In this document: one piece after another, positions 3,415-5,789 of the stretch | Layout: the number at the start of each line of letters is the position of its first letter | How positions within the stretch are numbered: position 1 is the stretch's first letter | From: Candidatus Freyarchaeum deiterrae | Lineage (GTDB): Archaea; Asgardarchaeota; Jordiarchaeia; Jordiarchaeales; Jordiarchaeaceae | Assembly: GCA_037305845.1 (NCBI GenBank) | Contig: CP147778.1 | Coordinates: forward strand, 2,240,001 to 2,304,000 | DNA length: 64,000 nt | Direction: 5' to 3' | The notes under the pieces: model-generated | What the model saw: only the letters and a program-made list of their open reading frames with translations | Databases searched by the model: none | Told to the model about the DNA's origin: nothing | Translations under genes and position numbers: made by a program

Positions 3415-3849
3415 TTAAAGTGATTCCACTGTCAGTATTACTTCAACTTCCTTTTCTGGATTCTTCAGCAGTTCGACCAGTTTTCTGTTTAAATCTATTG
3501 CTGCTTTGTCGGCTTTTACCATAATTGTTCTGTCACTGTAATAACTGCTCCTCCTCGCCACCAGGTCATGGGGATGGCTGAAAGTCAAGCGTGGGCTTCC
3601 GAAGCCTCTGATGATTTCAGTTTGTTCGTCGACTTTTATAATCATGGTAATCTTCGAGTTTTCTTTTCTAGCAAGCTCCTTGAATGGCTCGCTGAGTTGG
3701 TAGGCTCCTTTATTAGAACCAACAGCTATTACACAATCCCCTCTAGTCGTCAAATCCTCTTCTGTTGTTATTTCAAGCGTTGTCCGGTGCTTAGAAGAAA
3801 TGTTTGGATGCCCACGGGCATAAAGTGTTTCCGTTACTTTTTCGTTCAA
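3415..3849 (-). CDS. DUF371 family protein
   Basis: ARGHPNI..KHRTTLEIT.E..LT.RGDCVIAV and RRSSY.SDRT motifs. Start moved to TTG at 3849 because the longer ORF overlaps pcm. Confidence 0.85.
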   Translation of the reverse strand: MNEKVTETLYARGHPNISSKHRTTLEITTEEDLTTRGDCVIAVGSNKGAYQLSEPFKELARKENSKITMIIKVDEQTEIIRGFGSPRLTFSHPHDLVARRSSYYSDRTIMVKADKAAIDLNRKLVELLKNPEKEVEVILTVESL

Positions 3850-3934
3850 ACCGTTTACACCGATACTTATTTTTGGCGATTTGCACTTAAAAGTTAGCAG
3901 AGGACACACTAAAAAATTTAGCGAGTGAAAATCC

Positions 3935-4656
3935 TTGGCAAAAGATAATTTTTTGACAGAAAAGAAAAAACTTTTAGAGAACCTGAAGCGCACCGGCTTT
4001 GTTACCAGAGAAAACGTAATGCAAGCGTTCCTCAGAGTTCCCCGAGAAGAATTCGTGCCAGAGAACCTCAGAGACAAAGCTTACGTTGACCACCCCCTAC
4101 CAATTCCAGGCGGTCAAACAATATCTGCGCCACGCGAAAAAGCATATCCCTGCTTTTCGGGCGAAACATGTGCGTTCTAATGTGCGACGTACTAGAATTG
4201 GAAAAGGGCATGAAAGTACTAGAAGTAGGCGGAGGTTCAGGTTATCACGCAGCGCTATGCGCTGAGATAATAGCACCCACAGGTTCCAAAAGCGAGGGCC
4301 ATGTCTACACCATAGAACGAATACCCGCGCTAGTCGATTTTGCCAACGAAAATCTGAAAAAAACTGGATACATTGACAGAGTAACCATCTACACAGGAGA
4401 CGGCTCGGAGGGATTCCCCGATATGGCTCCCTATGACGCCATACTTGTGACAGCTGCAGCGCCCAAGGTGCCCCAACCACTCATTGACCAATTAGCCGTG
4501 GGAGGAAAATTAGCCATTCCTCTCGGGAGCCTTTTCATGTATCAGGAATTGATAGTAGTTGAAAAATTAGAGGGCGGTCAGACGAAGAGGCACAGGTTCG
4601 GTGGTGTGGCCTTCGTTCCGCTATTGGGTCGTTGGGGGTATCGTAATAGTTGGTAA
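3935..4656 (+). CDS. pcm: Protein-L-isoaspartate O-methyltransferase, spliced: join(3935..4133,4166..4656), 229 aa
   Basis: The N-half (VPREEFVP..AYVDHPLPI..GQTISAP) and C-half (VLEVGGGSGYHAA, GDGSEG, APYDAILVTAA, FVPL) are in different frames. Removing 4134-4165 yields GQTISAPHM. Confidence 0.92.
4134..4165 (+). other. 32-nt BHB intron in pcm mRNA
   Basis: Central helix CGCC(4128-31)/GGCG(4160-63), bulges AC|G and AA|A, intron stem CGAAAAAGCA/TGCTTTTCG, exon pairs TG/CA. Confidence 0.88.
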
Positions 4657-4760
4657 GGTTTTTTGAGGTTCGTAAATGTAATTTATGCTGACCTGCGGAT
4701 ACGGTTATTGAGGATTCTAGTTTCGATTCTTTCTTCAATGTTTATTGATTCTAGTAGATA

Positions 4761-5789
4761 CTATGATTTGAAGAATTGTTCTAGGCGTGATTGGGCTTTT
4801 GTTCTGTCTTCTTCTCGTATGCGTTCCATCGCGTTTTGAACTCGGTCTCTGGAGAAGTCGTGGTCGTCGCAGAGTATTGAATACACTTGATTTCTGTCGA
4901 TGGGTTCCCATCTTATTTTGTAATTGTCAGTTGTTTTGGGTTTTAGGAATAGTTGTTTTATTTCTTCTACTGGGGGTTCTATTTCTAGTTTTCCTTCTTC
5001 TACCACCCTTTCGATGCTTTGTTTTTCCTTTATGAGTCTTATTGCGGTTTTCACTCCTATTCCCTTTACTCCTTCATTGTAATCGGTGCCCAGTAGGATG
5101 CCTATTCCTATAAGTTGTTCACGGGATATGCCGAGGTTCTCTAGATTCTCATCCAGCGATACTAGTTCGGGCTCTACTTTCACATAGGCGTCTTTTTTGG
5201 GTATTTTTCTTCTTCCTGATATTGTGAGATTTCGCACGAGGTTGGGCGAATTAAAAAGTAAAGAATCGTAGTCCTGGCTGGCGACCCCCCACGCGTCTCC
5301 ACGGCGTGCCATGTAGGAGGCTTGAGCTTCTCCCTCTGAAGGAGCCTGAACGTGTGGTACACCCATGGCTGCTAAGAGTCTCTTGCTCTCCTCAACCATT
5401 TCATCAGTTAATCTCGTGGAGGACTGGGCAAATTTTCTCGCTTCCTCCATATCTCCTTTCTCTAATGCTTCTTCCCACTTTTTGGAGGCTTCATTCCTAA
5501 TCTTTCTCCGCTCCTCAACAGTACCAGATTTCAGCTCAGGCGGCTCACCATCAAATACGTAAACCGGTTTTATCCCAGCTTCCAGTAAGTTAATCGTTCT
5601 GTAAAAAACACCACTGAGGTGAGAAGTTATATCACCCTTCCTGTCCATGAGGCTGGTGCCATCAGGCTGCCTAATTATAGACAAAAACTGGTAAAGTGTA
5701 TTCATAGCATCCACAGCAATTACGCGTCCCGAAAGATCCTTCAAACCTACCTGCTGAAAAGAAAGCAAATCCCTCAGATTCACTCCCAT
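4761..5789 (-). CDS. fen: Flap endonuclease 1
   Basis: MGVNL, DAMNTLYQFL, VFDG, APSEGEAQA, SQDYD, GTDYN and C-terminal PIP box QSRLEQFF. Confidence 0.97.
   Translation of the reverse strand: MGVNLRDLLSFQQVGLKDLSGRVIAVDAMNTLYQFLSIIRQPDGTSLMDRKGDITSHLSGVFYRTINLLEAGIKPVYVFDGEPPELKSGTVEERRKIRNEASKKWEEALEKGDMEEARKFAQSSTRLTDEMVEESKRLLAAMGVPHVQAPSEGEAQASYMARRGDAWGVASQDYDSLLFNSPNLVRNLTISGRRKIPKKDAYVKVEPELVSLDENLENLGISREQLIGIGILLGTDYNEGVKGIGVKTAIRLIKEKQSIERVVEEGKLEIEPPVEEIKQLFLKPKTTDNYKIRWEPIDRNQVYSILCDDHDFSRDRVQNAMERIREEDRTKAQSRLEQFFKS

What the first reader, a model, noticed from the sequence alone, without database searches (positions are those of the whole stretch)
4121..4175. pcm intron splits the His codon of the conserved QTISAPHM motif
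The unspliced frame diverges after ISAP and stops at 4180. The BHB has CGCC/GGCG, bulges AC|G and AA|A, and a 9-bp intron stem. Excision joins C+AC to give His and a 229-aa enzyme. A protein-repair enzyme gated by splicing could be stress-regulated (speculative).
Basis: partly seen in the sequence, partly recalled or inferred. Interest (0 to 1): 0.85.

Follow-up and report, generated by a model that had tools for sequence, protein, structure and literature searches.

The report
tRNA-type intron splitting Asgard pcm gene
The only protein-repair methyltransferase gene (pcm) of this Asgard archaeon is broken by a 32-base insert shaped like a tRNA intron, so its mRNA very probably has to be cut and rejoined by the tRNA-splicing enzymes; the papers I could search report this inside a coding sequence for only one other archaeal gene (cbf5).

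Summary
Exon 1 (3935-4133) matches Pfam PCMT positions 2-59 and exon 2 (4166-4656) matches 61-208, so exactly the His of QTISAPHM is missing. Joining C + AC restores it and gives 229 aa.

The 32-nt insert has bulge-helix-bulge geometry:
- a 4-bp helix CGCC/GGCG
- 3-nt bulges AC|G and AA|A
- a 9-bp stem with one bulged A
- a weak outer helix

The same insert (23-34 nt, any phase) sits at the same codon in 18 of 400 sampled Asgard genomes and 17 of 201 sampled Thermoproteota genomes. Across 20 distinct Asgard-side sequences the central helix is 100% paired, with one GC-to-AU double change. All 7 counted stem pairs covary.

Both exons are under strong purifying selection (dN/dS 0.03-0.12). This is the genome's only pcm. 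Two EndA paralogues and RtcB are present. Three other genes of this genome (kae1, gatE-like, cbf5) are split the same way.

No RNA evidence was found.

This scan had already noted pcm introns in other genomes, and mRNA introns elsewhere in this genome. The papers I searched report only cbf5.

The parts
3935..4133 (+). pcm exon 1: TTG start, 66 codons ending ...GQTISAP, plus C4133, the first base of the His codon
   Evidence: Matches Pfam PCMT profile 2-59 and NCBIfam Pcm equivalogs 5-63 / 8-66. dN/dS is 0.03-0.12 against genus relatives.
4134..4165 (+). 32-nt BHB intron; predicted cuts after 4133 and after 4165
   Evidence: The same site is occupied in 18 of 400 Asgard genomes and 17 of 201 Thermoproteota genomes.
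4166..4656 (+). pcm exon 2: AC (completing the His codon), then ATG 4168 and 162 codons, with the stop at 4654-4656
   Evidence: Matches Pfam PCMT profile 61-208 and NCBIfam 65-214. dN/dS is 0.04-0.07.
4128..4131 (+). Central 4-bp helix H, 5' strand (CGCC; exon 1, Ala/Pro codons). It pairs with 4160-4163.
   Evidence: Paired in 20 of 20 sequences. G15-C48 changes to A-U in 2 sequences: a synonymous GCG-to-GCA change matched by GGCG-to-GGTG in the intron.
4160..4163 (+). Central helix H, 3' strand (GGCG; intron)
4132..4134 (+). Bulge 1 (A C | G); the 5' splice site lies after its second nucleotide
   Evidence: Read from the sequence. Bulge 1 is AC|N (TC|T in G023 copy 2) in all relatives.
4164..4166 (+). 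Bulge 2 (A A | A); the 3' splice site lies after its second nucleotide
   Evidence: Read from the sequence. Bulge 2 is NN|A in all relatives.
4135..4159 (+). Intron stem-loop h': 4135-4140/4154-4159 and 4142-4144/4151-4153, with A4141 bulged and loop 4145-4150
   Evidence: 95.7% of cells are paired, and all 7 counted pairs show changes on both sides.
4123..4127 (+). Weak outer exon-exon helix, 5' strand; pairs with 4167-4171 (G4127-C4167, T4126-A4168, mismatch, T4124-G4170, A4123-T4171)
   Evidence: Only the pair next to the bulge is kept in all 20 sequences. The helix as a whole is 66% paired, and it is energetically unfavourable.
4178..4180 (+). TAA that ends the unspliced exon-1 frame (81-aa product)

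Best explanation
Positions 4134-4165 are an archaeal bulge-helix-bulge (BHB) intron inside the coding sequence of pcm (protein-L-isoaspartate O-methyltransferase).

Proposed mechanism:
1. In the pre-mRNA, the Ala-Pro codons of exon 1 (CGCC) pair with GGCG near the 3' end of the insert.
2. This presents two 3-nt bulges on opposite strands of a 4-bp helix, next to a 9-bp intron hairpin.
3. The tRNA splicing endonuclease cuts after the second nucleotide of each bulge (after 4133 and after 4165). The genome has two EndA paralogues, consistent with a heteromeric enzyme of relaxed specificity.
4. RtcB joins the exons. The 32-nt intron is probably released as a circle.
5. The ligated mRNA reads ...ISAP-H-MCVLM... 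and encodes a 229-aa Pcm.

Unspliced mRNA gives only an 81-aa fragment, and possibly a 162-aa C-terminal fragment from ATG 4168 that lacks the QTISAPH motif.

What is shown: the geometry, the frame restoration, conservation with covariation, selection on both exons, and the presence of the enzymes. What is inferred: the cleavage, the ligation and the circular intron.
For: - One residue missing: Pfam PCMT matches exon 1 at profile 2-59 and exon 2 at 61-208. NCBIfam Pcm equivalogs match 5-63 and 65-214.
- Same junction everywhere: all 15 intron-bearing loci of the first set have a 4/4-paired H helix, a 3-nt bulge 1 (AC|N) and bulge 2 (NN|A), and a 7-11 bp stem. Excision always rebuilds CAC or CAT.
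- Covariation on 20 distinct sequences: H is 100% paired with a GC-to-AU double change; the stem is 95.7% paired with double changes at all 7 pairs; 0 of 500 shuffles reach the observed score; slid controls are far lower.
- Intron length varies from 23 to 34 nt in all three phases. The 30-nt in-frame versions carry a TAG.
- dN/dS is 0.03-0.12 for exon 1 and 0.04-0.07 for exon 2, with saturated dS.
- There is no other pcm in the 3.58-Mb one-contig genome. The next PCMT-like hits are generic or arsenite-type methyltransferases.
- Two EndA paralogues are present, one closest to the Aeropyrum pernix chain 3p1z_B, plus one RtcB.
- The same kind of insert splits kae1/tsaD (profile 8-61 | 64-264), a gatE/gatB-like gene (2-34 | 47-277) and cbf5 (DKCLD | TruB_N 17-) in this genome.
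- The BHB conformer is within 0.4 kcal/mol of the MFE.
Against: - There is no RNA evidence. No spliced junction was found in JGI metagenome contigs; all 5 hits carry the insert.
- Every close protein homologue in the 5.8-billion-protein collection is an exon-2-only gene call of 158-167 aa. None is a full-length spliced form.
- The outer exon-exon helix is weak, so the motif is relaxed (HBh') rather than strict hBHBh'.
- Folding energy is not better than that of shuffled sequence (z = -0.13).
- My own genome-wide scan gave no enrichment of frame-restoring BHB candidates over shifted-junction controls. The genome-wide count therefore rests on individually checked genes, not on that statistic.
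Confidence: 0.88

Rival explanations
1. Split gene. The insert is an intercistronic hairpin, and Pcm is made as two polypeptides that assemble non-covalently: an 81-aa N-fragment and a 162-aa C-fragment started at ATG 4168.
For: An ATG follows the insert directly in all relatives, and GGTG/GGCG a few bases upstream is faintly Shine-Dalgarno-like. Public gene callers call exon 2 alone.
Against: That ATG is simply the conserved Met of QTISAPHM, which intronless genes also have. A split gene has no reason to keep C before the insert and AY after it, so that exactly His is rebuilt in about 35 genomes. It also has no reason to keep 3-nt bulges around a covarying 4-bp helix that involves coding bases. 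The catalytic motif would be cut in two.
Confidence: 0.05
2. Decaying pseudogene: an old frameshifting insertion in a gene that is no longer needed.
For: The frame is broken, and annotation pipelines truncate the gene.
Against: dN/dS is 0.03-0.12 in both exons with saturated synonymous change. The insert is kept at one site across two phyla with compensatory changes. This is the sole pcm copy in a complete genome.
Confidence: 0.03
3. Translational bypass or programmed frameshift: the ribosome hops over the hairpin, as in phage T4 gene 60.
For: A stable hairpin sits in the gap, and a stop lies shortly after it in the unspliced frame.
Against: The insert lengths of 23-34 nt fall in all three phases. 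There are no matched take-off and landing codons. The conserved features are exactly those of an EndA substrate (4-bp helix, two 3-nt bulges), not of a bypass signal.
Confidence: 0.02

Closest known systems
cbf5 pre-mRNA BHB intron of Crenarchaeota (Watanabe et al. 2002; Yokobori et al. 2009, PMC2738675)
   Same: Both are short BHB-type introns inside the coding sequence of an archaeal housekeeping gene. Both are removed by the tRNA splicing endonuclease and ligase, and both show patchy gain and loss among relatives. PMC7714728 states that cbf5 was the only such mRNA example besides a 5'-UTR case in Haloferax.
   Different: It is a different gene (pcm), found in Asgard and in one Thermoproteota pcm clade, not only in Desulfurococcales and Sulfolobales. 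The site is a codon of the catalytic motif. Splicing has not been shown experimentally here. This genome's own cbf5 also carries a 32-nt BHB insert.
Non-canonical tRNA introns with relaxed HBh' motifs, abundant in Freyarchaeia and Atabeyarchaeia tRNA genes (PMC11291895; bioRxiv 10.64898/2026.10.13.758758; review PMC4090602)
   Same: The motif is the same, the size range is similar, and the predicted enzymes are the same. The lineage is reported to have introns in 92-95% of its tRNA genes.
   Different: The host RNA is an mRNA, so the exon half of the motif is made of codons under protein constraint. Neither paper reports introns in protein genes.
HVO_1309 5'-UTR BHB intron of Haloferax volcanii (PMC7714728)
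   Same: EndA processes an mRNA, shown in vivo and in vitro.
   Different: That intron lies in the untranslated leader. The pcm intron interrupts the reading frame.
HAC1/XBP1 unconventional mRNA splicing in eukaryotes (Ire1 cleavage, tRNA ligase/RtcB joining; from established knowledge)
   Same: Both are non-spliceosomal, protein-catalysed excisions of a short intron from an mRNA, followed by joining with a tRNA ligase. In both, the frame after the junction changes.
   Different: The endonuclease differs (Ire1 rather than EndA), and so do the stem-loop signals. That system is a proven stress switch, whereas nothing here shows regulation.

Membership tests
Archaeal BHB intron (substrate of the tRNA splicing endonuclease EndA) | [quoted passage not shown] | tested here: met
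   CGCC 4128-4131 pairs with GGCG 4160-4163, with bulges 4132-4134 and 4164-4166. The same geometry is found in all relatives.
Archaeal BHB intron (substrate of the tRNA splicing endonuclease EndA) | Flanking helices: intron-side h' and exon-side h (the strict hBHBh' form) | tested here: inconclusive
   h' is strong (9 bp with one bulged A; 95.7% paired; covaries). h is weak: only the first pair is always kept, and the helix is 66% paired overall. The motif is therefore the relaxed HBh' form.
Archaeal BHB intron (substrate of the tRNA splicing endonuclease EndA) | Cutting after the second nucleotide of each bulge yields a functional joined RNA | tested here: met
   The join gives C+AC = His. 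The Pfam and NCBIfam profiles then become continuous with one residue filled in. This holds for every intron-bearing relative.
Archaeal BHB intron (substrate of the tRNA splicing endonuclease EndA) | Structure kept by compensatory change among relatives | tested here: met
   9 pairs have changes on both sides. The covariation score is 0.441 against 0.175 in shuffles (0 of 500 reach it), and slid controls give at most 0.18.
Archaeal BHB intron (substrate of the tRNA splicing endonuclease EndA) | Endonuclease and ligase encoded by the host | tested here: met
   There are two PF01974 genes (98.9 and 70.8 bits) and one RtcB (571 bits). The PDB relatives of the endonuclease genes are archaeal EndA chains.
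Archaeal BHB intron (substrate of the tRNA splicing endonuclease EndA) | Cleavage and ligation observed in RNA (spliced junction, circular intron) | not testable with these tools
Pcm / PIMT (protein-L-isoaspartate O-methyltransferase, PF01135) | Full-length match to the family profile, including the QTISAPHM and SAM-binding (VLEVGGGSGY) motifs | tested here: met
   Exon 1 scores 55.7 bits and exon 2 scores 152.4 bits on PF01135. The summed bits exceed the cut-offs of NF001453 and TIGR00080. The motifs were read. The His exists only after the join.
Pcm / PIMT (protein-L-isoaspartate O-methyltransferase, PF01135) | Methyl transfer to isoaspartyl residues | not testable with these tools
   This needs an enzyme assay of the spliced product.

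The most novel reading that the evidence does not exclude
The pcm intron is an old intron position shared by Asgard archaea and a Thermoproteota lineage. It would be either inherited from before the two groups diverged or moved between them together with the gene. It belongs to a routine mRNA-splicing regime in Freyarchaeia and Jordarchaeia, in which expression of housekeeping proteins (Pcm, Kae1, GatE-like, Cbf5) depends on EndA and RtcB. That would put protein-catalysed splicing of many mRNAs in the closest prokaryotic relatives of eukaryotes. It could also act as a checkpoint that couples protein repair to the state of the RNA-repair and ligation machinery, in the manner of HAC1/XBP1.
Probability: 0.12. 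Interest if true: 0.85.

Novelty: new member of a known kind. Interest (0 to 1): 0.66.

Why it matters
The papers I could search report endonuclease-type splicing inside an archaeal coding sequence for cbf5 only. No paper in the library holds both 'isoaspartate' and 'bulge-helix-bulge'.

A second gene family with a conserved, covarying intron at one codon, present in both Asgardarchaeota and Thermoproteota, would have several consequences:
- mRNA splicing by the tRNA machinery would not be a cbf5 oddity.
- It gives a clean test substrate for EndA on mRNA.
- It exposes a systematic annotation error. Public pipelines call a 158-167-aa exon-2 fragment, or read into the insert.
- It bears on how split genes could arise in the lineage nearest to eukaryotes.

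Tried and rejected
1. Thermodynamics as evidence. The MFE z-score is -0.13, so stability alone does not single the region out.
2. Genome-wide BHB scan.
   - The first control (mirror pairing) was flawed by low-complexity runs.
   - With shifted-junction controls, with or without a codon-usage filter, frame-joining candidates were no more frequent at the true junction (169 and 170 against 158-192; 15 and 20 against 15-23). Neighbouring genes in different frames pass the filter.
   - The scan therefore gives leads only. Five leads were checked by Pfam. kae1, gatE-like and cbf5 are convincing. The SAH-hydrolase and aconitase candidates are inconclusive because exon 1 had no hit.
3. Direct evidence of splicing.
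   - A degenerate spliced-junction pattern found nothing in JGI metagenome contigs.
   - A pattern that allowed either form found 5 contigs, all with the insert.
4. A genome-contig scan with exon 2 returned only intronless pcm from other phyla, and the window's own lineage was left out.
5. Rfam found no family match in 3800-4800.
6. The protein search over 300 Asgard genomes truncated its match table, so it could not map split genes. A site-specific DNA pattern replaced it.
7. Pseudogene, split-gene and ribosome-bypass readings were considered and rejected, as set out under the rival explanations.

Full report
**What is in the sequence**

The + strand carries an ORF from TTG 3935 that reads ...PLPIPGGQTISAP. 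It then diverges (REKAYPCFSGETCAF) and stops at TAA 4178-4180. A second ORF starts at ATG 4168 in another frame: MCVLMCDVLELEKGMKVLEVGGGSGYH..., 162 aa, with its stop at 4654-4656.

- Pfam PCMT (PF01135) matches the first piece at profile positions 2-59 and the second at 61-208.
- The NCBIfam Pcm equivalogs match 5-63 and 65-214, or 8-66 and 68-212.
- So exactly one residue is missing between the pieces: the His of the conserved QTISAPHM motif.
- Removing 4134-4165 (32 nt) joins C4133 to A4166 C4167. This gives CAC, followed in frame by ATG 4168, and a 229-aa protein.
The '9-bp stem' has one bulged A (A4141).

**Anatomy**

The parts are as follows:

| Part | Positions |
|---|---|
| Central helix H | CGCC 4128-4131 (Ala and Pro codons) pairs with GGCG 4160-4163 |
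| Bulge 1 | A4132 C4133 \| G4134, on the 3' side of the first strand |
| Bulge 2 | A4164 A4165 \| A4166, on the 3' side of the second strand |
| Intron hairpin h' | 4135-4140/4154-4159 plus 4142-4144/4151-4153, loop 4145-4150 |
| Outer exon-exon helix h | G4127-C4167, T4126-A4168, a mismatch, then T-G and A-T |

This is the geometry of the archaeal bulge-helix-bulge motif, with both predicted cuts after the second nucleotide of a bulge. Because the outer helix is weak, the motif is the relaxed HBh' form.

- Without the outer helix, the BHB conformer is -13.4 kcal/mol against an MFE of -13.8 for 4123-4171.
- The region does not fold better than shuffled sequence (z = -0.13).
- The case therefore rests on comparison, not on energy.
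- Rfam has no match in the region.

**Comparative evidence**

The genome is one 3.58-Mb contig. Its nearest pcm homologues are labelled Candidatus Freyarchaeota (79% identity) and Jordarchaeales (about 61-64%). It is probably, by inference only, the complete wetland-soil Freyarchaeia genome of PMC11291895.

In 40 relatives, the gap between the Pro codon and the Met codon is either 3 nt (a plain CAC or CAT; 15 loci) or 28-35 nt (15 loci including the window's own). In every one of the 15, the H helix is 4/4 paired, bulge 1 is AC|N, bulge 2 is NN|A, and the insert folds into a 7-11 bp stem. Cutting at the BHB positions rebuilds CAC or CAT.

A site-specific pattern run over 400 Asgard genomes found the insert in 18:
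- family f1, 5 of 5
- family f2, 5 of 5 (same order as f1)
- family f13, 2 of 3
- family f8, 1 of 1
- family f15, 3 of 4
- a second pcm copy in G023

Two further matches were intronless read-throughs.

Two metagenome contigs added new variants. On the resulting 20 distinct sequences (alignment A1), the named structure gave these results:
- H is 100% paired. One pair changes from G-C to A-U in two sequences: a synonymous GCG-to-GCA change in the Ala codon is matched by GGCG-to-GGTG in the intron.
- The stem is 95.7% paired, with changes on both sides at all 7 counted pairs.
- The covariation score is 0.441 against 0.175 in shuffles (0 of 500 reach it). With slid partners it is at most 0.18.
- Only the first outer pair is always kept.

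Insert lengths run from 23 to 34 nt in all three phases. The 30-nt in-frame versions of f15 contain a TAG.

**The gene is alive**

Against genus relatives, exon 1 has dN/dS of 0.03-0.12 and exon 2 has 0.04-0.07, with synonymous sites saturated. No other pcm exists in the genome. The next PCMT-like hits score about 40 bits on Pcm equivalogs, against cut-offs of 159-282, and are generic or arsenite-type methyltransferases. A sole, strongly constrained gene whose two halves lie in different frames needs a mechanism that joins them.

**The machinery**

The genome has two EndA-family genes (PF01974, 98.9 and 70.8 bits) and one RtcB (571 bits).
- One EndA is closest to chain B of the Aeropyrum pernix enzyme (3p1z, 3ajv) and to other crenarchaeal EndA chains.
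- The other is closest to the Methanocaldococcus jannaschii enzyme.

Two paralogues fit the two-subunit architecture. According to PMC5829648 and the Asgard tRNA-intron preprint, that architecture goes with relaxed motif specificity. I did not test which paralogue is catalytic.

**Not a one-off in this genome**

My strict BHB scan could not prove enrichment statistically, because adjacent genes pass the frame-joining filter as often at shifted junctions. It did yield candidates, which I checked exon by exon:

| Gene | Insert | Genome position (- strand) | Profile match of exon 1 \| exon 2 |
|---|---|---|---|
| kae1/tsaD | 28 nt | 2203715-2203742 | TsaD 8-61 \| 64-264 |
| gatE/gatB-like | 30 nt | 1472160-1472189 | GatB_N 2-34 \| 47-277 |
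| cbf5 | 32 nt | 1483415-1483446 | DKCLD in exon 1; TruB_N from position 17 in exon 2 |

Two further candidates (SAH hydrolase, aconitase) were inconclusive. Earlier notes of this scan claim 19-25 such genes in this genome. I verified only these three plus pcm.

**Beyond Asgard**

The same pattern run over 201 evenly drawn Thermoproteota genomes found 17 with a BHB insert at the same codon. The H helix is the same (CRCC/GGYG, once with a G-U pair), as are the bulges (AC|N or TC|T, and NN|A).

In a Pcm tree of 64 rows:
- The intron-bearing Thermoproteota genes form one strongly supported clade (SH-aLRT 99).
- That clade sits inside the Asgard pcm radiation, apart from the intronless Sulfolobales and Desulfurococcales genes.
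- All 35 intron-bearing rows lie within one 45-row clade (support 89).
- The intron label needs 3 changes on the tree, but strongly supported branches force only 1.
- A single origin followed by losses and a transfer between phyla is therefore possible, but not shown.

The second pcm copy of the Asgard MAG G023 falls inside the Thermoproteota clade. Its insert is nearly identical to that of G542. It is most likely a contaminant contig or a recent transfer.

**What is missing**

No RNA-level evidence was found.
- A spliced-junction pattern found nothing in JGI metagenome contigs.
- A pattern allowing either form found five contigs, all with the insert.
- All close homologues in the 5.8-billion-protein collection are exon-2-only calls of 158-167 aa. 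One 190-aa call reads into the insert.

**Interpretation**

The best explanation is a BHB intron that EndA excises from the pcm pre-mRNA and RtcB ligates (confidence 0.88). The rivals are a two-polypeptide split gene (0.05), a pseudogene (0.03) and ribosomal bypass (0.02). All three fail to explain why C...AY and the two 3-nt bulges around a covarying helix are kept in about 35 genomes.

The non-conserved loops and the presence of like introns in other housekeeping genes make a switch specific to pcm less likely.

**Comparison with what is known**

- The closest precedent is the cbf5 pre-mRNA intron of Desulfurococcales and Sulfolobales (PMC2738675).
- PMC7714728 states that, apart from the Haloferax 5'-UTR case it reports, cbf5 was the only mRNA example.
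- The Freyarchaeia genome paper reports introns in 92-95% of tRNA genes, used Prodigal for gene calls, and does not mention introns in protein genes.
- The 2026 Asgard tRNA-intron preprint does not mention them either.
- No paper in the library holds both 'isoaspartate' and 'bulge-helix-bulge'.

This scan, however, had already noted pcm BHB introns in other Asgard, Bathyarchaeia and DPANN genomes, and mRNA introns elsewhere in this genome. I class the finding as a new member of a known kind.

Noticed in passing
L110:1-297:- and L111:1-780:- (G000:C1:1483415-1483446, minus strand, outside the window): This genome's cbf5 is itself split by a 32-nt BHB-type insert between the DKCLD domain and TruB_N position 17. 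cbf5 is the gene whose intron is the published precedent in Crenarchaeota. I did not compare whether the site is the same as the crenarchaeal one.
   Followed up: partly
L104/L105 (G000:C1:2203715-2203742, -) and L108/L109 (G000:C1:1472160-1472189, -): kae1/tsaD has a 28-nt BHB-type insert and a gatE/gatB-like gene has a 30-nt one. In both, the Pfam profile coordinates of the two exons abut.
   Followed up: partly
L103:1492-1554:- (G023 contig C126): The second, intron-bearing pcm copy of an Asgard MAG clusters with the Thermoproteota pcm genes, and its insert is almost identical to that of G542. It is probably a contaminant contig or a recent inter-phylum transfer.
   Followed up: partly
Proteins P0002-P0016, P0025, P0026, P0076 and others: Public gene calls for pcm in these lineages are systematically truncated to exon 2 (158-167 aa). 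In one case the call is extended N-terminally by reading through the insert in the wrong frame (P0025, 190 aa).
   Followed up: partly
L088:1492-1554:- and L090:1492-1554:- (family f15): In these genomes the pcm insert is 30 nt, so it is in frame, yet it carries an in-frame TAG. Read-through would still be blocked.
   Followed up: no
window 3415-4077 (-): Only residues 86-217 of the listed 220-aa DUF371 ORF match the family. A TTG near 3858 giving MNEKVTETLYARGH... is the more likely start. That would leave a divergent intergenic region of about 76 bp before pcm, and would remove the apparent overlap with pcm exon 1.
   Followed up: no
L079 (G000:C1:1451548-1452798, -): The single RtcB matches its Pfam profile only from position 20, within a 442-aa open frame. 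I did not examine this.
   Followed up: no
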